This document shows positions 12,576 through 49,306 of a stretch of DNA of 64,000 nt, piece by piece. Origin of the DNA: Bacteroidetes bacterium HGW-Bacteroidetes-7. Lineage in GTDB: Bacteria > Bacteroidota > Bacteroidia > Bacteroidales > UBA932. Under the pieces are notes generated by a model, which was not told where the DNA came from, did no database searches, and was given only the letters and a program-made list of their open reading frames with translations. Numbering within the stretch: the stretch's first letter is position 1; each line of letters begins with the position of its first letter. The DNA is taken from contig PHDA01000013.1 of NCBI GenBank assembly GCA_002842465.1, forward strand, positions 3,375 to 67,374. The letters run 5' to 3'. Made by a program: the position numbers and the translations under genes.

Positions 12576-12593
12576 ATGATTGCTTTTATGGGT

Positions 12594-12635
12594 ATTTTAC
12601 CATGTTGATTTTTTATTTTACCATGTTGATTTTTT
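12594..12635 (+). repeat. Perfect 21-bp tandem direct repeat x2 (ATTTTACCATGTTGATTTTTT)
   Basis: Read directly: 12594-12614 is identical to 12615-12635. It ends 34 nt before the ATG at 12670. Confidence 0.95.
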
Positions 12636-27794: not shown

Positions 27795-27865
27795 CAGGGG
27801 CAGAGAGATTCGAACTCCCATCAACGGTTTTGGAGACCGCTATTCTACCCTTGAACTATGCCCCT
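27795..27865 (-). tRNA. tRNA-Trp (anticodon CCA)
   Basis: Folded by hand into a 71-nt cloverleaf: acceptor AGGGGCA/TGCCCCT, anticodon loop CTCCAAA, T-loop TTCGAAT. CCA is not encoded. Confidence 0.9.
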
Positions 27866-27878
27866 TTATAATTATAAC

Positions 27879-27907
27879 AGGTTAGTCACCTTTTGGGTGA
27901 CTAACCT
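27879..27907 (-). other. Perfect 12-bp stem-loop between tuf and tRNA-Trp (processing site or weak terminator)
   Basis: AGGTTAGTCACC-5 nt-GGTGACTAACCT. No clean U-tract follows on the - strand. Confidence 0.5.
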
Positions 27908-27922
27908 GATCTATTAATCTGA

Positions 27923-29110
27923 TTAGTCGACGATCTCAGTTACCTGACCGGCACCAACTGTACGTCCACCTTCGCGGATAGCGAAACGAAGACCTTGGTT
28001 GATAGCAACAGGGTAGATCAATTCAACAGTAATTGTAACGTTATCACCCGGCATTACCATCTCTGTTCCTTCAGGAAGCATAATCTCTCCTGTGATATCC
28101 AGTGTACGGATAAAGAACTGAGGACGGTATCTGTTGTGGAATGGAGTGTGACGTCCACCTTCATCTTTCTTAAGAACGTAGATCTCAGCTTTGAACTTGG
28201 TGTGAGGAGTAATTGTGTTTGGTTTTGCAATTACCTGACCACGCTTGATCTCTTTCTTGTCGATACCACGAAGAAGAAGACCTACGTTATCACCTGCTTC
28301 ACCTCTGTCAAGAATCTTACGGAACATCTCAACTCCTGTACAAGTAGATTTCTTTGGCTCTTCACCAAGACCGATAATCTGAACCTCTTCTCCGGTTTTG
28401 ATAACACCTGTCTCGATACGACCTGTAGCTACTGTTCCACGACCTGTGATTGAGAATACATCCTCAACAGGCATAAGGAAAGGTTTTTCATTTTCACGAG
28501 GAGGAATTGGAATGTACTCGTCAACATATTTCATAAGTTCTACAACTTTATCTTCCCACTGAGGGTCACCGTTAAGTGCACCTAGAGCAGAACCGCGAAC
28601 AACAGGAGCGTTATCGCCGTCAAATTTGTAGAAGCTAAGAAGTTCACGAACCTCCATTTCAACGAGGTCAATCATCTCAGGATCATCAACAATGTCAACT
28701 TTATTAAGGAATACCACAATCTTAGGTACGTTCACCTGACGTGCAAGCAGGATGTGCTCGCGTGTCTGAGGCATAGGACCATCAGTTGCAGCAACCACAA
28801 GAATAGCACCGTCCATCTGAGCAGCACCAGTAACCATGTTTTTAACGTAGTCGGCGTGACCAGGGCAGTCAACGTGAGCATAGTGACGATTTTCTGTCTG
28901 ATACTCTACGTGAGCAGTGTTAATAGTAATACCACGCTCTTTTTCTTCAGGAGCGTTATCGATAGAGTCAAATGAACGAATTTCAGATAGACCCTTTCTT
29001 GCCAGTACCATAGTGATAGCCGCAGTCAAAGTAGTTTTACCATGGTCAACGTGACCGATGGTTCCGACGTTTACGTGTGGCTTGTCCCTTTTATAAGTTT
29101 CTTTTGCCAT
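27923..29110 (-). CDS. tuf: Elongation factor Tu
   Basis: 395 aa with [22 protein letters not shown] and the rest of the canonical EF-Tu sequence. Confidence 0.99.
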
Positions 29111-29157
29111 AATGATTGAATTTTTAAATATAATTTAACTTTTTTACACACTTGTAG

Positions 29158-29229
29158 AGCCGGTGACGGGAATTGAACCCGTGACCTCTTCCTTACCAAG
29201 GAAGCGCTCTACCTCTGAGCTACACTGGC
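29158..29229 (-). tRNA. tRNA-Thr (anticodon GGT)
   Basis: 72-nt cloverleaf folded by hand. Anticodon stem CTTCC/GGAAG, loop TTGGTAA, T-loop TTCAATT. The acceptor stem has one A4.C69 mismatch. Confidence 0.88.
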
Positions 29230-29238
29230 TTACTATAG

Positions 29239-29311
29239 AGCGGAAGACGAGGTTCGAACTCGCGACCCTCAGCTTGGAAGGCTGATGCTCTACCAACTGA
29301 GCTACTTCCGC
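29239..29311 (-). tRNA. tRNA-Gly (anticodon TCC)
   Basis: 73-nt cloverleaf: acceptor GCGGAAG/CTTCCGC, anticodon loop CTTCCAA, T-loop TTCGAAC. Confidence 0.9.
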
Positions 29312-29326
29312 GATAAATAATAAAAG

Positions 29327-29409
29327 TGGGGAGAGCAGGATTCGAACCTACGAAGGCGTACGCCAGCAGATTTACAGTCTGCCCCAGTTGGCCACTTTGG
29401 TATCTCCCC
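29327..29409 (-). tRNA. tRNA-Tyr (anticodon GTA), long variable arm
   Basis: 83 nt: acceptor GGGGAGA/TCTCCCC, anticodon loop CTGTAAA, class II variable arm, T-loop TTCGAAT. Confidence 0.9.
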
Positions 29410-29439
29410 ATAATGAATAATTTCAAAAAACTTTTTTCG

Positions 29440-29513
29440 AGCCGATGGAGGGATTCGAACCCCCGACCAGCTGATTACAAATCAGCTGCTCTGGCCAACT
29501 GAGCTACATCGGC
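29440..29513 (-). tRNA. tRNA-Thr (anticodon TGT)
   Basis: 74 nt: acceptor GCCGATG/CATCGGC, anticodon loop TTTGTAA, T-loop TTCGAAT. Confidence 0.9.
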
Positions 29514-44259: not shown

Positions 44260-45168
44260 CTAGTCCTGGATGTACCCGAATTGTCTGAGTTTTCTGTCGT
44301 CTTCGCGCCAATCGGGATTTACTTTTACAAATATCTGTAAAAATACCCTTTTTTCAAAAAAGGTTTCCATATCTTTTCTGGCAAGTGTTCCAACTCTTTT
44401 TAGCGCCTCACCACCCTTGCCAATTAAAATTCCCTTCTGGGAATCTCTTGTAACATAGATAATTGCTTCTATATGATAGATGTCATCAGACTCTTTAAAG
44501 TTTTCAATAACAACTTCGGTACAGTAAGGGACCTCTTTCGAATAATTTAAAAGAATCTTTTCACGAATTATCTCACTGGCAAAAAACCTGAGATTTCTGT
44601 CAGTAAAGATATCCTTTTCGTACCAAGCCGGATTTTCAGGAATAATTTCCAGAATTCTGTTGAAAAGCGCATCAAGGTTAAATTTTTCCTGCGCAGAGAT
44701 TGGAAAAATCTCGGCATTTGGTAAAAGTTCTCTCCATGTGGAGTGAATTTCTTCCAATTCAACCTGATTGCTTAGATCAATTTTATTGATTACAAGAAGA
44801 ACCGGAATTGAGGTGTCTTTTAATCGGTTAACAAAGTCCAGGTTTTTCGTGCTTTTTTCAACCACATCGGTAACATAAAGTATAACATCGGCGTCCGAAA
44901 ATGCAGAACGTACAAAACTCATCATACTCTCCTGCAATTTGTAGTTAGGACGTAAAATACCCGGAGTATCAGAATAGACAATCTGATAATCTTCACCGTT
45001 TACAATTCCCATTATGCGGTGTCTGGTTGTTTGAGCTTTGGCTGTAACAATTGACAGTCTTTCGCCAACCAGCGCATTCATAAGCGTAGATTTGCCAACA
45101 TTTGGGTTTCCCACAATGTTGACAAATCCTGACTTGTGATTTTTTTTAGTTTCCTGAGAACTAATCAT
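44260..45168 (-). CDS. era: GTPase Era
   Basis: G1 GNPNVGKST, G3 DTPG, G4 NKID, and a C-terminal KH domain. The ATG at 45168 is preferred over the GTG at 45174. Confidence 0.93.
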   Translation of the reverse strand: MISSQETKKNHKSGFVNIVGNPNVGKSTLMNALVGERLSIVTAKAQTTRHRIMGIVNGEDYQIVYSDTPGILRPNYKLQESMMSFVRSAFSDADVILYVTDVVEKSTKNLDFVNRLKDTSIPVLLVINKIDLSNQVELEEIHSTWRELLPNAEIFPISAQEKFNLDALFNRILEIIPENPAWYEKDIFTDRNLRFFASEIIREKILLNYSKEVPYCTEVVIENFKESDDIYHIEAIIYVTRDSQKGILIGKGGEALKRVGTLARKDMETFFEKRVFLQIFVKVNPDWREDDRKLRQFGYIQD

Positions 45169-47155
45169 AGGCACCCATCTTTAGCAGAGATACCTCTACA
45201 TCGGTAAGAAAACGCCATTGTCCTCTTTTAAGGTTCTTTTTGGTAAGTCCTGCAAAAAAGACTCTGTCAAGTTTCTTAACCTTATATCCAAGATGTTCGA
45301 ATATTCTTCTCACAATCCTGTTTTTACCCGAGTGAATCTCAAGACCAACCTGACTATTCTCCCCATCTACATAGGAAAGAGCGTCTGCGTGAGCCTCTCC
45401 GTCTTCAAGGTTAATACCCTTAAGAATCATATCAAAATCTGATCCGGATAGATTTTTATCGAGATGAACATGGTATATTTTCTTTTGCATGTTTGACGGA
45501 TGAGTCAGCTTTTCTGCCATATCTCCATCATTTGTCAGCAATAATACACCTGTAGTAGATTTGTCAAGACGGCCAACCGGGAATACCCTCTGGCTGCATT
45601 TACCCTCAATCAGGTCCATAACGGTTTTATCTGCATTAGGATCAGACATTGTGGTTACAAAGTCTTTAGGTTTATTCATAACAATATAAACCTTCTCTTC
45701 TCCTTTAAGCCTCTCTCCGTTAAATCTTATATCGTCGTTATATGAAACTTTTATTCCAAGTTGAGTTACAATTTCACCGTTTATAGAGACCAAACCTGCC
45801 TCAATATATTCATCTGCCTCTCTTCTTGAGCATACGCCGGAATTGGCAATAAATTTATTTAGTCTTACGTTTCCTGTATCAGGTTTATATTCCTTTGGTG
45901 AAGTTTTGCTCTTTCTGACTCTCATTTTTGGAGTACGATCGCTCACAAATGAGTCCTCGTCAAAAAATGATTTATGTTGACCTTCTACGTAAGGTTTGCG
46001 CTCAGTTTCAAAAGGCTTTTGTTCTCCTTCGAAAGGTTTTTGCTCTCCTTCAAAAGGTTTACGTCCTCTTACAAACGGTCTGCGCTCGCCATCAAAAGGT
46101 TTACGTTCTCTGTCATATGGTTTACGCTCACCATCAAATGGTTTGCGATCTCTGTCGTATGGTTTACGCTCTCCATCGAATGGCTTACGGTCCCTGTTGT
46201 AAGGTCTGCGCTCACCATCAAACGGTTTACGCTCTCTGTCGTAAGGTTTACGCTCACCATCAAATGGTTTACGTTCTCTGTCAAATGGTTTGCGATCTCT
46301 GTCGAACGGTTTGCGAGCTCCATCAAACGGTTTACGTTCTCTGTCGTAAGGTTTACGCTCACCATCAAATGGTTTACGCTCTCTGTCAAATGGTTTACGT
46401 TCTCTATCGTAAGGTTTACGCTCACCATCAAATGGTTTACGTTCTCTATCGTAAGGTTTGCGCTCTCCATCAAATGGTTTGCGATCCCTGTTGTACGGTT
46501 TACGCTCTCCATCAAACGGTTTACGTTCTCTGTCGTAAGGTTTACGCTCTCCATCAAATGGTTTACGTTCTCTGTCAAATGGTTTACGAGCTCCATCAAA
46601 TGGTTTACGTTCTCTATCGTAAGGTCTGCGCTCACCATCAAATGGTTTACGTTCTCTATCGTAAGGTTTACGTTCTCCATCAAACGGTTTACGTTCTCTG
46701 TCAAATGGTTTACGCTCACCATCAAATGGTTTACGATCCCTGTTGTACGGTTTACGCTCTCTATCAAACGGTTTGCGATCTCTGTTGTATGGTTTACGCT
46801 CTCCATCAAACGGTTTACGCTCCCTATCATACGGTTTACGCTCTCCATCAAACGGTTTGCGTTCCCTGTCATACGGTTTACGCTCACCATCAAACGGCTT
46901 GCGCTCCCTGTTGTACGGTTTACGCTCTCCATCAAACGGTTTGCGTTCCCTGTCATATGGTTTACGCTCACCATCAAACGGCTTGCGCTCCCTGTCAGAC
47001 GGCTTCGCATCTCTGCGGGTGCGGTCATAGGGTTTGCGATCACGATCAGACGGTTTCGCATCTCTGCGTGTGCGGTCCGAGGGTTTACGATCGCTAGTTT
47101 TCGTTCTTCCGGTAGCTCTTGCTCCGGCACGACTTGTAGATTGATTGTTTCTCAT
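45161..47155 (-). CDS. rluB: RluB/RsuA-family rRNA pseudouridine synthase (S4 + catalytic domain, about 235 aa) with a roughly 430-aa N-terminal heptad-repeat extension
   Basis: The C-terminal part has the S4 domain (VRLNKFIANSGVCSRREADEYI) and the catalytic motif GRLDKSTTGVLLLTNDGD. Residues 22-391 are (E/D)RKP(F/Y)(D/N)(G/R) heptads. Confidence 0.9.
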   Translation of the reverse strand: MRNNQSTSRAGARATGRTKTSDRKPSDRTRRDAKPSDRDRKPYDRTRRDAKPSDRERKPFDGERKPYDRERKPFDGERKPYNRERKPFDGERKPYDRERKPFDGERKPYDRERKPFDGERKPYNRDRKPFDRERKPYNRDRKPFDGERKPFDRERKPFDGERKPYDRERKPFDGERRPYDRERKPFDGARKPFDRERKPFDGERKPYDRERKPFDGERKPYNRDRKPFDGERKPYDRERKPFDGERKPYDRERKPFDRERKPFDGERKPYDRERKPFDGARKPFDRDRKPFDRERKPFDGERKPYDRERKPFDGERRPYNRDRKPFDGERKPYDRDRKPFDGERKPYDRERKPFDGERRPFVRGRKPFEGEQKPFEGEQKPFETERKPYVEGQHKSFFDEDSFVSDRTPKMRVRKSKTSPKEYKPDTGNVRLNKFIANSGVCSRREADEYIEAGLVSINGEIVTQLGIKVSYNDDIRFNGERLKGEEKVYIVMNKPKDFVTTMSDPNADKTVMDLIEGKCSQRVFPVGRLDKSTTGVLLLTNDGDMAEKLTHPSNMQKKIYHVHLDKNLSGSDFDMILKGINLEDGEAHADALSYVDGENSQVGLEIHSGKNRIVRRIFEHLGYKVKKLDRVFFAGLTKKNLKRGQWRFLTDVEVSLLKMGAYD
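45983..47092 (-). repeat. 21-bp (heptad) coding tandem repeat array: 48 uninterrupted units plus degenerate flanking units
   Basis: Counted from the translation: 48 consecutive 7-aa units run from residue 56 to 391 (45983-46990). Degenerate DRKPSDR / TRRDAKPSDR units extend up to 47092. All six frames are open across the array. Confidence 0.95.
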
Positions 47156-47173
47156 TTATATTTTATTCGGGTG

Positions 47174-47181
47174 CAAAGTTA
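47174..47181 (-). promoter_or_regulatory. Candidate -7 box TAACTTTG for rluB-era-parC-aroK
   Basis: TAnnTTTG match 19 nt upstream of the rluB ATG. Confidence 0.45.
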
Positions 47182-47238
47182 TGTTAATAACATATATTTT
47201 CCTACTTTTACAGACTCATTAGATGTAATTTGTATCAA

Positions 47239-48519
47239 ATGTCACGCCTGGTAAGAATAATTTCAAAATTTGCAGGGTACAATCCTTTATTGAAGGAAAA
47301 TTTTAATGTATCTATCAAATCAATCAAAAGCAGCAAGCTTAGATCATCATTAACAATTATGATTATTGCAATCGGAATAACCTCCTTGGTAGGTATTCTT
47401 ACTGCAACAGATTCAATTAAGGCCCTTCTAAACGAAAATTTCGGGAAAATGGGGGCCAATTCATTTGCAATTCGTTCGAACTTTACCGACACACAAACTA
47501 CAAACCGTAAGGCCCGTGTATTAAACCGCCGAAATATCCGTTACAGTCAGGCTAGGGATTTTGCCGATAATTTCGAAATTCCTTCAATAGTAACCATATC
47601 TGCAACTGCAATTAATAATGCTACTATTAAATATGGCTCTGCAAAAACCAATCCAGTAATTAGGGTAATAGCTACGGATGAAAAAAATGCTGGATATGTG
47701 GGGGCAAAAATGGCAAAAGGGAGAAACTTAAATTTCAGGGATATTGAATCTGCCTCTTTTACCGCTGTGATAGGCTCCGGCGTAGCAACCTCTCTTTTTA
47801 AAGGGTCTGACGATCCTATAGGAAAGGTTATTTCGGTAGGAGCGGTAAGATATGAAGTTATTGGCGTTTTGGAAAAGCAGGGTCAAACTTTTGGAGGAGG
47901 TGTAGATAATCAGGTTTGGATACCGGTTTCAAACGCCAGATCAATTTTCCTTTCGGATAATTCGTTTTTTGTAATAGGTATTATTCCGGAACTGGGAGTT
48001 GATCAGAATAAGGCGATGGAGGCGGCAGAACAACTTTTCAGATCTATAAGAAGGTTAAGCCCCATTGATCAGTCTGACTTTAGAGTTACCAAGTCTGACG
48101 CCATGATGGAAGACATAATGAATATTATGAATTATGTTACAATTGCGGCGTTTTTAATAGGTGCCATAACATTGCTTGGTGCTGCCGTTGGTCTGATGAA
48201 CATAATGCTGGTATCTGTTAAAGAGAGGACTCGTGAAATTGGTACAAGAAAGGCACTGGGCGCAAATTCCGCTACTATAAAACAGCAGTTTCTTTTTGAG
48301 TCAATTGTAATTGGCCAACTTGGAGGGGCATTTGGAATTCTACTGGGAGTTTTGGTGGGTAACCTTACAGCAGTGCTAATGAAAAGCCCGTTTATTATTC
48401 CATGGTTCTGGATGTTTGCCGGAGTAATGGTTTGCCTGATTGTAAGTATTGCTTCGGGATATATTCCTGCAGTAAGAGCCTCAAAACTAGATCCGATTGA
48501 GGCGTTAAGATACGAGTAA
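47239..48519 (+). CDS. MacB/FtsX-family ABC transporter permease (no adjacent ATPase)
   Basis: N-terminal TM (KLRSSLTIMIIAIGITSLVG), a MacB-like periplasmic domain, and an FtsX C-terminal 3-TM block (ERTREIGTRKALGA). The ATG at 47239 is preferred over the TTG at 47230. Confidence 0.85.
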   Translation: MSRLVRIISKFAGYNPLLKENFNVSIKSIKSSKLRSSLTIMIIAIGITSLVGILTATDSIKALLNENFGKMGANSFAIRSNFTDTQTTNRKARVLNRRNIRYSQARDFADNFEIPSIVTISATAINNATIKYGSAKTNPVIRVIATDEKNAGYVGAKMAKGRNLNFRDIESASFTAVIGSGVATSLFKGSDDPIGKVISVGAVRYEVIGVLEKQGQTFGGGVDNQVWIPVSNARSIFLSDNSFFVIGIIPELGVDQNKAMEAAEQLFRSIRRLSPIDQSDFRVTKSDAMMEDIMNIMNYVTIAAFLIGAITLLGAAVGLMNIMLVSVKERTREIGTRKALGANSATIKQQFLFESIVIGQLGGAFGILLGVLVGNLTAVLMKSPFIIPWFWMFAGVMVCLIVSIASGYIPAVRASKLDPIEALRYE

Positions 48520-48538: not shown

Positions 48539-49306
48539 CTACTTCAGTTTGAATATATATGTGATTGTACCCTCCTGAACAGCAGGGGCATTTGCACTTA
48601 GATTGAATTTTGCCTTTAATGCTGCTTTTCTTGCAGCCTCCCATAGGGTTCTGTCCTGCACAGTTGTGCCTGTAGACCCGGAGGTGGCGCTGATAACTGT
48701 TCCGTATTGATCGACAGATATCTTTACCACTACAGTTCCCGATTTATTGACAGCATATTCCGGTTCAGGGAGCGAACCCATTACACTTCTTCCGGCCAAT
48801 CTTGCCTGAGGTACACCATCAACAGATCCAACGCGGGTATTTCCATCGGCATGTCCCGGAGTAAGGTCTCTGCCGGCTTCACGGGCAACCTGAGGTGCTG
48901 TGGAATCTGCATTTGATGCAGATGGGAACAGAGCCCTTTTATCAATTACCGGCCTAGGAGGTTCATATTGTTCGACATCACCTTTGTCACCGGCAGTGGC
49001 CTCGGCACCCCTGTTGGCTCCAGTACCTGTTATTGGAGACTGGGATCTTTGGACAAGCCTTATATCCTCGTTGGGATTTGGGTTTTCAACTCTTGGTTCG
49101 TTCCCCGAACTCACCTGAATAGGTTTAGGGGGTTGAAGTTCAAAGTCAACCTCAATTCCTGTCTCTGCAGGGGGAGGATAAACTACCTTAAAGCCCGTTG
49201 TAAAGAAGAGAGAGACAAGCAGAATATGAAATCCTGATGCCATGTAAACGCCAATGAATTTAGCGCGTTTCTCCGCTTTGGTAGGTTTAAAAGGTAGCTT
49301 TGCCAT
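48539..49306 (-). CDS. tonB: TonB-family energy transducer
   Basis: N-terminal TM anchor, Pro-rich spacer (YPPPAETGIEVDFELQPPKP) and a C-terminal TonB domain (GTVVVKISVDQYGTV). Located downstream of exbBD. Confidence 0.85.
   Translation of the reverse strand: MAKLPFKPTKAEKRAKFIGVYMASGFHILLVSLFFTTGFKVVYPPPAETGIEVDFELQPPKPIQVSSGNEPRVENPNPNEDIRLVQRSQSPITGTGANRGAEATAGDKGDVEQYEPPRPVIDKRALFPSASNADSTAPQVAREAGRDLTPGHADGNTRVGSVDGVPQARLAGRSVMGSLPEPEYAVNKSGTVVVKISVDQYGTVISATSGSTGTTVQDRTLWEAARKAALKAKFNLSANAPAVQEGTITYIFKLK

What the first reader, a model, noticed from the sequence alone, without database searches (positions are those of the whole stretch)
45983..47092. RluB-type pseudouridine synthase carrying 48 uninterrupted heptad repeats (ERKPFDG/ERKPYDR), about 370 aa of charged low-complexity sequence
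Seen in the sequence:
- Residues 56-391 of the 664-aa ORF are 48 consecutive 7-aa units with consensus (E/D)RKP(F/Y)(D/N)(G/R), mostly alternating ERKPFDG and ERKPYDR.
- They are preceded by degenerate DRKPSDR / TRRDAKPSDR units and followed by EQKPFEG variants. Only the last 235 aa form the S4 plus catalytic module.
- The DNA units differ mainly at synonymous sites. For example, Arg is CGT, CGC or AGA, and Pro is CCT, CCG or CCA. The peptide period is therefore under selection, and this is not a recent slippage artefact.

Established knowledge: RluB-family enzymes often have short basic tails.

Inference: an array of this length and regularity is extraordinary. It forms a polyampholyte with aromatic residues at a fixed period, the kind of sequence expected to bind RNA or drive condensate-like self-association during ribosome assembly. 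It is also a likely VNTR locus and a risk for assembly errors.
Basis: partly seen in the sequence, partly recalled or inferred. Interest (0 to 1): 0.65.

Follow-up and report, generated by a model that had tools for sequence, protein, structure and literature searches.

The report
Giant charged-repeat tail on pseudouridine synthase
An rRNA-modifying enzyme of an uncultured groundwater Bacteroidales bacterium carries a real, translated, about 430-residue disordered tail made of 48 copies of a 7-residue charged motif; close relatives carry the same tail in varying length, and the same motif turns up on many other RNA-handling proteins, so it is probably an RNA-tethering appendage rather than a one-off oddity.

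Summary
A 664-aa ORF on the minus strand (45161..47155) has 48 in-register heptads, (E/D)RKP(F/Y)(D/N)(G/R), at residues 56-391. Four degenerate units precede them; a linker, an S4 domain and an RsuA-family pseudouridine synthase domain follow.

- **Selection:** variation between units is mostly synonymous (pN/pS 0.19, against 3.1 and 0.62 in the shifted frames).
- **Assembly:** the longest exact internal repeat is 44 nt, and four public contigs encode the identical protein, so mis-assembly is unlikely.
- **Start site:** a Bacteroidetes -7 box lies 19 nt upstream of the ATG. The N-terminal cap is conserved, so the array is translated.
- **Structure:** AlphaFold2 gives pLDDT below 50 and no secondary structure for residues 1-427.
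- **Not unique:** orthologues in other Bacteroidales MAGs carry the same heptads (658- and 674-aa proteins). Near-identical strains differ by whole units (440-608 aa), as in a VNTR. More distant relatives have other basic repeats.
- **Other carriers:** the same heptad decorates RlmL-like, RlmI-like, RsmB and SpoU methyltransferases, RRM proteins, KhpB, Rho and a DEAD-box helicase.
- **Family:** "RluB" is not established; neither the RluB nor the RluF equivalog cut-off is met.

Most likely it is a disordered, net-basic, multivalent RNA tether. A role in condensates is untested.

The parts
45161..47155 (-). Complete ORF, 664 aa: N-terminal cap, repeat array, linker, S4 domain and RsuA-family pseudouridine synthase domain.
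   Evidence: ORF listing; Pfam and NCBIfam scans; the identical protein is encoded on 4 public contigs.
47174..47181 (-). TAACTTTG, a match to the Bacteroidetes sigma-A -7 box TAnnTTTG, 19 nt upstream of the ATG.
   Evidence: Sequence read. It is the only TAnnTTTG on this strand between 45161 and 47300. The consensus itself is from my own knowledge of Bacteroidetes promoters.
47093..47155 (-). N-terminal cap, residues 1-21 (MRNNQSTSRAGARATGRTKTS).
   Evidence: The consensus MRNxxxSxRAGAGAxGR is kept in orthologues that carry different repeat types. 25 of 72 complete loci start with MRN.
46991..47092 (-). Degenerate leading units, residues 22-55 (DRKPSDR, TRRDAKPSDR, DRKPYDR, TRRDAKPSDR).
   Evidence: TRF period 51, 1.9 copies. 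155 of the first 165 nt are identical in the sister allele.
45983..46990 (-). 48 uninterrupted heptads, residues 56-391, with a basic period of two units (42 nt): ERKPFDG-ERKPYDR.
   Evidence: AlphaFold2 pLDDT is below 50 with no secondary structure. FCR 0.61, NCPR +0.09, 48 aromatic residues at an exact 7-residue spacing.
45872..45982 (-). Non-repetitive basic linker, residues 392-428, containing the first internal Met (Met411).
   Evidence: Met positions; a Met occurs within 30 aa of the S4 start in only 16 of 78 loci. pLDDT is below 50.
45728..45868 (-). S4 RNA-binding domain, residues 430-476.
   Evidence: Pfam PF01479, E = 8.8e-12. Folded in the AlphaFold2 model.
45293..45688 (-). Pseudouridine synthase catalytic domain, residues 490-621, with the catalytic Asp in GRLD (G528-D531, window 45563-45574).
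   Evidence: Pfam PF00849; TIGR00093 above its cut-off; G528, R529, L530 and D531 are invariant in a 35-sequence alignment; best solved relatives are 3dh3 (RluF) and 4lab (RluB).
44260..45174 (-). era (GTPase plus KH domain). It overlaps the synthase stop by 14 nt, so the two are probably co-transcribed and translationally coupled.
   Evidence: An Era homologue lies immediately downstream on the same strand in 80 of 80 related loci.

Best explanation
The gene encodes an RsuA-family rRNA pseudouridine synthase. Its folded S4 and catalytic module (residues 429-664) is preceded by a translated, intrinsically disordered N-terminal tail of about 430 residues.

The tail is a strong, well-mixed polyampholyte with a net positive charge of about +37. 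It has one Pro and one Phe/Tyr every seven residues.

Most likely mechanism (inferred): the tail is a multivalent, low-specificity RNA-contact arm. Arg/Lys and the regularly spaced aromatic residues make many weak contacts with nascent or misfolded rRNA. This keeps the enzyme concentrated on pre-ribosomal particles, and possibly in RNA-rich clusters. The S4 domain then positions the catalytic domain on its specific uridine.

The gene is co-transcribed with era, a ribosome-assembly GTPase.

Array length changes by unequal recombination or slippage of 21- and 42-nt units. Purifying selection preserves the peptide motif, and synonymous divergence keeps the DNA units dissimilar.

Shown here: the array exists, lies in frame, is under selection, is predicted to be disordered, has the stated charge and composition, varies in copy number, sits in a conserved operon, and recurs on RNA-acting proteins.

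Inferred: RNA binding, tethering, and any role in condensates.
For: **Translated and under selection**
- pN/pS is 0.19 in frame, against 3.1 and 0.62 out of frame.
- The N-terminal cap is conserved upstream of divergent arrays.
- The only -7 box on the strand lies 19 nt upstream of the annotated ATG. Met411 is poorly conserved.

**Disordered**
- AlphaFold2 with a 35-sequence alignment gives pLDDT below 50 and no secondary structure for residues 1-427, against a folded module at 429-664.
- Only 6 aliphatic residues occur in the 370 aa.

**Basic and multivalent**
- FCR 0.61, NCPR +0.10, pI 10, 83 Arg and 49 aromatic residues.

**Family-wide feature**
- All 72 complete related loci have a tail of 52-440 aa. 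It is net-positive in nearly all, even where the repeat unit is different, with periods of 10, 11, 13 or 14.

**Association with RNA proteins**
- The same heptad occurs on RlmL-like THUMP methyltransferases, an RlmI-like methyltransferase, RsmB, SpoU/RlmB-like enzymes, RRM proteins, KhpB/Jag, Rho, a fungal DEAD-box helicase and DUF3276 proteins. It can sit at either terminus.
- One such methyltransferase lies in a Bacteroidota-type gene neighbourhood.

**Operon**
- era follows the gene in 80 of 80 loci.

**Precedents from the literature**
- KKE/D tails of Cbf5, Nop56 and Nop58 concentrate snoRNPs near nascent rRNA (PMC11528048).
- IDRs of RhlE helicases promote RNA binding, unwinding and clustering (PMC11260450).
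- The IDR of Bacteroides thetaiotaomicron Rho drives phase separation (PMC10284900, PMC13269538).
- E. coli RluB co-purifies with stalled pre-50S particles (PMC11912913, PMC9848016).
Against: - There is no direct evidence of RNA binding or localisation for this or any related array.
- Copy number varies about two-fold among near-identical strains, from 440 to 664 aa. Gut and rumen relatives manage with 52-100 aa of aperiodic tail. Length itself may therefore be under weak selection.
- Very low charge segregation (kappa 0.02-0.04, below shuffled controls at 0.12-0.15) predicts an expanded coil with weak electrostatic self-attraction. Condensate formation would have to rely on RNA and on Arg-aromatic contacts.
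- Some carriers of similar repeats are not obviously RNA proteins: one with Big_9/Cadherin domains, one with fn3 and one Endonuclease I.
- The fusion partners may reflect convergent evolution rather than a shared module. The position-7 Arg uses a different codon family in the THUMP array.
Confidence: 0.55

Rival explanations
1. The tail is a tolerated repeat expansion with little or no length-dependent function. It is disordered, and a recombination-prone repeat drifts up and down in copy number. Selection only keeps the peptide soluble and harmless (charged, Pro-containing, non-aggregating). A short basic segment next to the S4 domain would do whatever functional work there is.
For: - Allele lengths of 440-664 aa occur among strains whose catalytic domains are 94-96% identical.
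- Interior units are gained and lost freely while the array edges stay collinear.
- Relatives carry quite different repeat units, or short aperiodic tails of 52-100 aa.
Against: - pN/pS of 0.19, with near-saturated synonymous divergence (pS about 0.7), shows long-term maintenance of the exact motif and not merely of composition.
- The same heptad recurs on many unrelated RNA-acting families.
- No related locus lacks a tail altogether.
Confidence: 0.22
2. The tail acts as a protein-protein docking or regulatory element rather than an RNA binder. Candidate roles are an entropic spacer or bristle, an autoinhibitory arm that covers the S4 or catalytic surface until it is displaced, or a multivalent platform for Era, ribosomal proteins or other assembly factors.
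For: - The operon and translational coupling with era are conserved.
- The conserved N-terminal cap resembles a short linear motif held at the end of a long spacer.
- Short autoinhibitory sequences control the phase separation of Bacteroides thetaiotaomicron Rho (PMC13269538).
Against: - The fusion partners share RNA as a substrate, not a common protein partner.
- The array occurs at either terminus and without the cap in other families.
- A net positive charge and Arg plus aromatic chemistry are typical of nucleic-acid contact.
Confidence: 0.15
3. The feature is an artefact. Either the array length is a mis-assembly, or the array is not translated and the real protein starts at Met411, downstream of it.
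For: - Contigs of related MAGs often break in these arrays.
- Logan k=31 contigs of runs holding this sequence fragment inside the array.
- Some database gene calls for orthologues are only 236-254 aa long.
- No long-read run could be found.
Against: - The longest exact repeat inside the array is 44 nt, far below read length and below the k=141 used for the contig.
- The identical 664-aa protein is encoded on 4 public contigs of different lengths.
- Contig pieces from independent groundwater runs match stretches of the array with 0 mismatches.
- The selection signal is specific to the annotated frame.
- The N-terminal cap is conserved and the -7 box lies upstream of the first ATG.
- A Met occurs within the 30 residues before the S4 start in only 16 of 78 loci.
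Confidence: 0.04

Closest known systems
E. coli RluB, RluF and RsuA (RsuA family of S4-domain rRNA pseudouridine synthases; PDB 4lab, 3dh3, 1ksk)
   Same: It has an S4 domain followed by a catalytic domain with the GRLD Asp motif. TIGR00093 scores above its cut-off. phmmer E-values are 2e-39 (RluF), 3e-30 (RluB) and 2e-25 (RsuA). E. coli RluB associates with pre-50S particles (PMC11912913, PMC9848016).
   Different: It is far below the equivalog cut-offs for both RluB (115 against 290 bits) and RluF (147 against 318), so the target uridine is unassigned. The E. coli enzymes have at most a short basic C-terminal tail (my own knowledge). Here the appendage is N-terminal, about 430 aa long and perfectly periodic.
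KKE/D lysine-rich disordered domains of the eukaryotic snoRNP proteins Cbf5 (the pseudouridine synthase), Nop56 and Nop58
   Same: They are charged, disordered, repetitive tails on rRNA-modifying machinery. Their electrostatics concentrate the enzyme near nascent rRNA (PMC11528048). This is the closest functional analogy.
   Different: The eukaryotic tails are C-terminal, Lys-rich and not strictly periodic, and they lack Pro or aromatic residues at fixed positions. There is no homology. A function for the bacterial array is only inferred.
Disordered C-terminal extensions of bacterial DEAD-box helicases (P. aeruginosa RhlE1 and RhlE2; E. coli DeaD/CsdA tail)
   Same: They are basic, low-complexity tails on RNA-remodelling enzymes involved in ribosome biogenesis and cold growth. 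They enhance RNA binding and unwinding and drive clustering (PMC11260450). From my own knowledge, DeaD carries FGGERREGGR-type repeats. These resemble the ERSFSRPRREGG units seen in more distant orthologues here.
   Different: Those tails are much shorter, with few repeats, and are attached to a helicase core. The heptad (E/D)RKP(F/Y)D(G/R) is not described for them.
Disordered insertion of Bacteroides thetaiotaomicron Rho
   Same: It is in the same phylum. A large IDR was acquired by a conserved RNA-binding enzyme, with phase separation and fitness effects demonstrated (PMC10284900, PMC13269538). A Rho homologue carrying ERKPYG/ERRPYDG units was recovered with the array as query (P0334).
   Different: It is a different host protein, and the published Rho IDR is not a long perfect heptad array. 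No experimental data exist for the synthase tail.

Membership tests
RsuA family of pseudouridine synthases (TIGR00093; S4 plus PseudoU_synth_2) | An N-terminal S4 RNA-binding domain adjacent to the catalytic domain. | tested here: met
   PF01479 at residues 430-476, E = 8.8e-12; folded in the AlphaFold2 model.
RsuA family of pseudouridine synthases (TIGR00093; S4 plus PseudoU_synth_2) | The catalytic domain scores above the curated family cut-off. | tested here: met
   TIGR00093 scores 139.8 bits against a cut-off of 109.3. PF00849 scores 70.1 against 26.8.
RsuA family of pseudouridine synthases (TIGR00093; S4 plus PseudoU_synth_2) | A catalytic aspartate in the conserved GRLD motif. | tested here: met
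   G528, R529, L530 and D531 are invariant across 35 aligned homologues and align with RluF GRLD in 3dh3.
RluB (23S rRNA pseudouridine-2605 synthase) equivalog | The NCBIfam NF007976 score reaches the equivalog cut-off of 290 bits. | tested here: not met
   The score is 115.3 bits. The JGI label '23S rRNA pseudouridine2605 synthase' on homologues is an automatic name.
RluB (23S rRNA pseudouridine-2605 synthase) equivalog | The enzyme modifies U2605 of 23S rRNA. | not testable with these tools
   This needs pseudouridine mapping in a mutant or in vitro.
RluF (23S rRNA pseudouridine-2604 synthase) equivalog | The NCBIfam NF007784 score reaches the equivalog cut-off of 318 bits. | tested here: not met
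   The score is 147.3 bits. It is the best of the equivalogs but far below the cut-off. The best PDB match is RluF 3dh3, at 138.6 bits.
Coiled coil or single alpha-helix (ER/K) 'heptad' domains | Helical propensity, with hydrophobic a/d positions (coiled coil) or Pro-free E/R/K runs (single alpha-helix). | tested here: not met
   There is one Pro in every heptad and only 4-6 aliphatic residues in the array. AlphaFold2 predicts no helix in residues 1-427.
Disordered basic RNA-tethering or condensate-promoting tails of RNA enzymes (KKE/D, RhlE/DeaD extensions, Rho IDR) | Predicted intrinsic disorder and low complexity. | tested here: met
   pLDDT is below 50 with no secondary structure for residues 1-427. 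FCR is 0.61.
Disordered basic RNA-tethering or condensate-promoting tails of RNA enzymes (KKE/D, RhlE/DeaD extensions, Rho IDR) | A net positive charge, attached to an RNA-modifying or RNA-remodelling core. | tested here: met
   Net charge is +37 and pI is 10.0. The tail is fused to an S4 plus synthase core. The same motif occurs on other RNA enzymes.
Disordered basic RNA-tethering or condensate-promoting tails of RNA enzymes (KKE/D, RhlE/DeaD extensions, Rho IDR) | Demonstrated RNA binding, phase separation or localisation that depends on the tail. | not testable with these tools
   This requires recombinant protein and in vivo imaging.
Coding VNTR (variable-number tandem repeat) | Near-identical alleles differ by whole repeat units, in frame. 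| tested here: met
   Alleles are 440, 460, 552, 580, 594, 601 and 608 aa, plus this one at 664 aa, and the cluster-8 alleles share the same catalytic-domain sequence. The unit-level alignment shows 48 against 36 units. Caveat: the alleles come from short-read assemblies.

The most novel reading that the evidence does not exclude
The (D/E)RKP(F/Y)D(G/R) heptad array may be a previously unnamed, portable or convergently evolved 'address label'. On this reading it targets functionally linked RNA enzymes to a common RNA-rich, nucleolus-like ribosome-biogenesis or transcription compartment in Bacteroidota and other bacteria. The enzymes would include rRNA pseudouridine synthases, the methyltransferases RlmL/K, RlmI, RsmB and RlmB, and also KhpB, Rho and RRM proteins. 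Copy number would tune partitioning, perhaps in relation to cold, nutrient-poor habitats such as groundwater.
Probability: 0.15. Interest if true: 0.85.

Novelty: new variant of a known kind. Interest (0 to 1): 0.55.

Why it matters
Disordered tails on bacterial RNA enzymes have only recently been shown to matter, for Rho, the RhlE helicases and RNase E. This family offers an unusually clean natural system:
- a single, strictly periodic motif;
- copy numbers from about 20 to more than 50 among close relatives, which amounts to a natural allelic series;
- the same motif on at least nine other families of nucleic-acid-acting proteins;
- cultured carriers (Aquirufa isolates) in which it can be tested.

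If the tail tethers the enzyme to nascent rRNA, it would be a bacterial counterpart of the KKE/D domains of eukaryotic snoRNPs.

There is also a practical point. These arrays break or shorten MAG assemblies and produce truncated gene calls of about 250 aa in databases.

Tried and rejected
- **Coiled coil or ER/K single alpha-helix reading of 'heptad'.** Rejected. There is a Pro in every unit, there are almost no aliphatic residues, and AlphaFold2 predicts no helix.
- **Mis-assembly.** Rejected as unlikely. The longest exact repeat is 44 nt, 4 contigs encode the identical protein, and independent runs match pieces of the array exactly. Read-level or long-read confirmation was not possible: only k=31 contigs were served and no Nanopore run was listed.
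- **Downstream start at Met411.** Rejected. There is no -7 box inside the gene, the Met is poorly conserved, and the selection signal is in frame.
- **A function at the DNA or RNA level, or in another frame.** Rejected. The long ORFs in the other frames (45928..47097 +, 45974..47254 +, 46069..47130 -) are by-products of a stop-free periodic sequence, and pN/pS is 3.1 and 0.62 in the two shifted frames of the coding strand.
- **A named repeat family.** Pfam and NCBIfam report nothing in residues 1-428. The PF13885, PF02095, PF08017 and PF12343 labels precomputed on some homologues are low-complexity cross-matches.
- **Literature.** Searches for the motif string and for descriptions of such arrays in pseudouridine synthases found nothing relevant.
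- **Recent block duplications.** Only one 3-unit near-identical run was found, so the array is a mosaic and not a fresh expansion.
- **Transfer of the module between gene families.** Unresolved. THUMP-array units lie 1-4 nt from window units, but their position-7 Arg uses CGR rather than AGR codons.
- **Metatranscriptome evidence.** Weak. One soil RNA run holds contigs from a related strain over part of the array and the catalytic region, at 90-98% identity.
Full report
**1. Observation**

The feature lies in a 664-aa ORF on the minus strand, 45161..47155. The finding's coordinates, 45983-47092, are exactly residues 22-391.

Parsing the translation in register gives 48 consecutive 7-residue units from residue 56 to residue 391, with no spacing error.
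- 44 units fit [DEA]R[KR]P[FY][DNV][GR]. The commonest are ERKPFDG (16), ERKPYDR (11), ERKPYNR (4) and DRKPFDG (4).
- The last four are degenerate: GRKPFEG, EQKPFEG, EQKPFET and ERKPYVE.
- Residues 22-55 hold four looser units, DRKPSDR / TRRDAKPSDR / DRKPYDR / TRRDAKPSDR.

Tandem Repeats Finder reports period 42, 23.2 copies, 82% matches and score 1028. This is the only large tandem repeat in the 64-kb window. Chance is not an issue.

**2. Selection and DNA-level structure**

Variation between units is concentrated at third codon positions. Summed column entropy is 1.48, 2.48 and 8.32 for codon positions 1, 2 and 3. There are 37 distinct DNA units but only 14 distinct peptides.

Nei-Gojobori estimates over all unit pairs give pS 0.71 and pN 0.13, a ratio of 0.19. 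The same calculation in the two shifted frames gives 3.1 and 0.62. The peptide in the annotated frame is therefore what selection preserves.

Arg codons are position-specific: CGT/CGC at position 2 and AGA/AGG at position 7. The G/R alternation at position 7 is a single A<->G change.

Same-phase units differ by about 4 of 21 nt and opposite-phase units by about 6. Only one run of three near-identical units, at an offset of four units, was found. The array is therefore an old mosaic with a two-unit period, not a fresh expansion.

**3. Is the array length real, and is it translated?**

Array length:
- The longest exact repeat inside the array is 44 nt. That is well below Illumina read lengths and below the k=141 of the MEGAHIT contig that carries it.
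- The identical 664-aa protein is encoded on four public contigs of different lengths.
- Logan k=31 contigs of groundwater metagenome runs match several stretches of the array with zero mismatches. As expected at k=31, they fragment inside it.
- No long-read run was listed, so the total length rests on assembly.

Translation start:
- The only TAnnTTTG motif on the coding strand between 45161 and 47300 is TAACTTTG, 19 nt upstream of the annotated ATG. TAnnTTTG is the Bacteroidetes -7 box, from my own knowledge.
- The first internal Met is residue 411. A Met occurs within the 30 residues before the S4 start in only 16 of 78 related loci.
- The N-terminal cap, MRNNQ..RAGAGASGR, is conserved in orthologues whose arrays differ.
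- A soil metatranscriptome holds contigs from a related strain over part of the array. This is weak evidence.

**4. The enzyme**

Pfam finds S4 at residues 430-476 and PseudoU_synth_2 at 490-621.

NCBIfam places the protein in the RsuA-type subfamily (TIGR00093, 139.8 bits against a cut-off of 109.3). No equivalog is reached: RluF scores 147 against 318, RluB 115 against 290 and RsuA 113 against 275.

The closest solved structures are RluF 3dh3 (138.6 bits), then RluB 4lab (108.9) and RsuA 1ksk (93.1).

The GRLD catalytic motif (D531) is invariant across 35 aligned homologues.

'RluB-type' is thus an automatic label. The family is certain; the target uridine is not.

**5. Physical character of the tail**

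Residues 22-391 have these properties:
- 132 K+R and 95 D+E, giving FCR 0.61, NCPR +0.10 and net charge +37, with pI 10.0.
- 49 aromatic residues, 52 Pro and only 6 aliphatic or Cys/Trp residues.
- Very well mixed charges. Kappa is 0.02-0.04, against 0.12-0.15 for shuffles.

AlphaFold2 with a 35-sequence alignment gives pLDDT below 50 and no secondary structure for residues 1-427, and a folded module at 429-664.

The word 'heptad' should not suggest a coiled coil. With a Pro in every unit, the tail is predicted to be an expanded disordered chain.

**6. Relatives**

A search with the catalytic part returned Bacteroidales proteins of mostly 350-476 aa that carry N-terminal arrays.

Eighty loci from species-representative genomes were fetched. 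Most come from uncultured Bacteroidales of groundwater, bioreactors, gut and rumen. In the 72 loci with a complete 5' end, the distance from the first Met to the S4 start ranges from 52 to 440 aa, with a median of 155. The window's value of about 430 is at the top of this range, but two loci match it:
- L004 (HGW-Bacteroidetes-5): extension 424 aa, protein 658 aa, 49 heptad-like units.
- L007: extension 440 aa, protein 674 aa, 52 heptad-like units.

Neither has Ns in the array, and their longest exact internal repeats are 74 and 116 nt. A chromosome-level MAG (OY762808.1, L010) has about 32 units.

More distant relatives carry other basic repeats, with periods of 10, 11, 13 or 14. Examples are ERRDSKPFDR, PSYRRGSSDDK and ERSFSRPRREGGN. 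Gut and rumen lineages carry short aperiodic basic tails. Almost all tails are net positive.

Era lies immediately downstream on the same strand in 80 of 80 loci. In the window the two ORFs overlap by 14 nt.

**7. Copy-number variation**

One 90%-identity cluster contains alleles of 440, 552, 580, 594, 594, 601 and 608 aa. The 552-608-aa alleles share the same catalytic-domain sequence and differ by whole heptads, often in the length of a DRKPFDR run. A separate allele of 460 aa (P0001) is 96% identical to the window protein in the catalytic part.

I aligned the window array (48 units) with a sister allele unit by unit. The sister allele is L082, with 36 units and 92% DNA identity in the 3' part of the gene. 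The first 13 or so units and the last 9 or so are collinear and near-identical. The interior has indels, mostly of pairs of units. This is VNTR behaviour. The caveat is that all alleles come from short-read assemblies.

The arrays are also a real assembly hazard. In six related loci the reading frame runs off the contig end; in five of them the contig ends inside a heptad array. Two more loci have runs of N in the tail. Some database entries are gene calls of only 236-254 aa.

**8. The same heptad on other proteins**

I searched the 5.8-billion-protein index with the array alone. I also searched 1.84 billion representatives, which gave 1211 hits at E <= 1e-3, 224 at E <= 1e-10 and 21 at E <= 1e-30. 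Besides pseudouridine synthases, these searches recovered:
- RlmL-like THUMP/UPF0020 methyltransferases, with the array at the C-terminus in some and the N-terminus in others.
- An RlmI-like SAM methyltransferase.
- RsmB (NusB plus Methyltr_RsmB-F domains).
- A SpoU/RlmB-like methylase.
- RRM proteins.
- KhpB/Jag (R3H plus KH domains).
- A Rho factor.
- DUF3276 proteins.
- A fungal DEAD-box helicase fragment.
- RsuA-family synthases with C-terminal arrays.
- The synthase of cultured Aquirufa isolates (631 aa).

Three hits have domains with no evident RNA link: a Big_9/Cadherin protein, an fn3 protein and an Endonuclease I. Several hits have no Pfam domain.

One THUMP methyltransferase lies in a Bacteroidota-type neighbourhood, with a SusC-like receptor and an ECF sigma factor. 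Its position-7 Arg codons (CGR) differ from those in the window (AGR). Independent origin is therefore as likely as transfer of the module.

**9. Interpretation**

Taken together, the evidence favours a translated, disordered, net-basic and multivalent arm that contacts RNA non-specifically. Such an arm would keep the enzyme on nascent or pre-ribosomal rRNA.

Closest analogies:
- The KKE/D domains of Cbf5, Nop56 and Nop58 (PMC11528048).
- The IDRs of RhlE helicases (PMC11260450).
- The IDR of Bacteroides thetaiotaomicron Rho (PMC10284900, PMC13269538).
- E. coli RluB is itself found on stalled pre-50S particles (PMC11912913, PMC9848016).

Whether the tail drives condensates is open. Well-mixed charges argue against electrostatic self-association. 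The 83 Arg and 49 aromatic 'stickers', together with RNA, could still support it. This last step is inference.

The main rival is a largely neutral, tolerated repeat, supported by the two-fold length variation among strains. Rivals 2 and 3 are a protein-docking role and an artefact. They are less likely, for the reasons given in their entries.

**10. Novelty and score**

I found no family model and no paper for this repeat. The single locus is not unique, because comparable arrays are common in its clade.

The wider pattern looks like a new variant of the known class of disordered tails on RNA enzymes, and it is experimentally tractable. That pattern is one strict heptad, a natural copy-number series, and recurrence on many RNA-acting families.

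Interest: 0.55.

Noticed in passing
P0163/L083 6001-7635, P0183, P0250, P0262, P0189, P0192, P0367, P0181, P0335, P0334, P0168, P0207 (found with window 45983-47092 as query): The same (D/E)RKP(F/Y)D(G/R/K) heptad array occurs at the N- or C-terminus of other nucleic-acid-acting families. These are RlmL-like THUMP methyltransferases, an RlmI-like methyltransferase, RsmB, SpoU/RlmB, RRM proteins, KhpB/Jag, Rho, DUF3276 proteins and a fungal DEAD-box helicase.
   Followed up: partly
window 47093-47155 (-), residues 1-21: The N-terminal cap MRNNQ..RAGAGASGR is conserved in orthologues whose repeat arrays are of different types. This suggests either a short linear motif or a constraint on translation initiation (the first codons are A-rich).
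   Followed up: partly
window 44260-45174 (-) and loci L002-L081: The era GTPase gene overlaps the synthase stop by 14 nt, and era follows the synthase gene on the same strand in 80 of 80 related loci. This is a conserved two-gene ribosome-biogenesis operon, followed by a parC/gyrA-like gene.
   Followed up: yes
L002, L005, L006, L009, L027, L029 (frame runs off the contig end); L020, L023 (runs of N): In five of these MAG loci (L002, L005, L006, L009, L027) the contig ends inside a heptad array. In L029 the frame also runs off the contig end, but no heptad cores were counted there. L020 and L023 have scaffold gaps in the tail. Several database entries for this gene are 236-254-aa truncated calls.
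   Followed up: partly
window 45928-47097 (+), 45974-47254 (+), 46069-47130 (-): Long ORFs (353-426 aa) lie in other frames across the array. They are by-products of a stop-free periodic sequence. pN/pS in the two shifted frames of the coding strand is 3.1 and 0.62, so these ORFs are not genes.
   Followed up: yes
loci L003-L021 compared with L026-L081: Long, strictly periodic arrays are found in MAGs from groundwater, freshwater, bioreactors and biofilms. Gut and rumen relatives have short aperiodic basic tails of 52-180 aa. This may reflect habitat or temperature, but it is confounded with phylogeny.
   Followed up: partly
window 27795-29513 (-): A cluster of five tRNA genes lies on the minus strand.
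   Followed up: no
window 48539-49306 (-): A 255-aa ORF with no Pfam match lies next to the ExbD and ExbB genes. By its position it may be a TonB-like component.
   Followed up: no
window 12593-12635: A perfect two-copy 21-nt tandem repeat (TATTTTACCATGTTGATTTTT) was not examined further.
   Followed up: no
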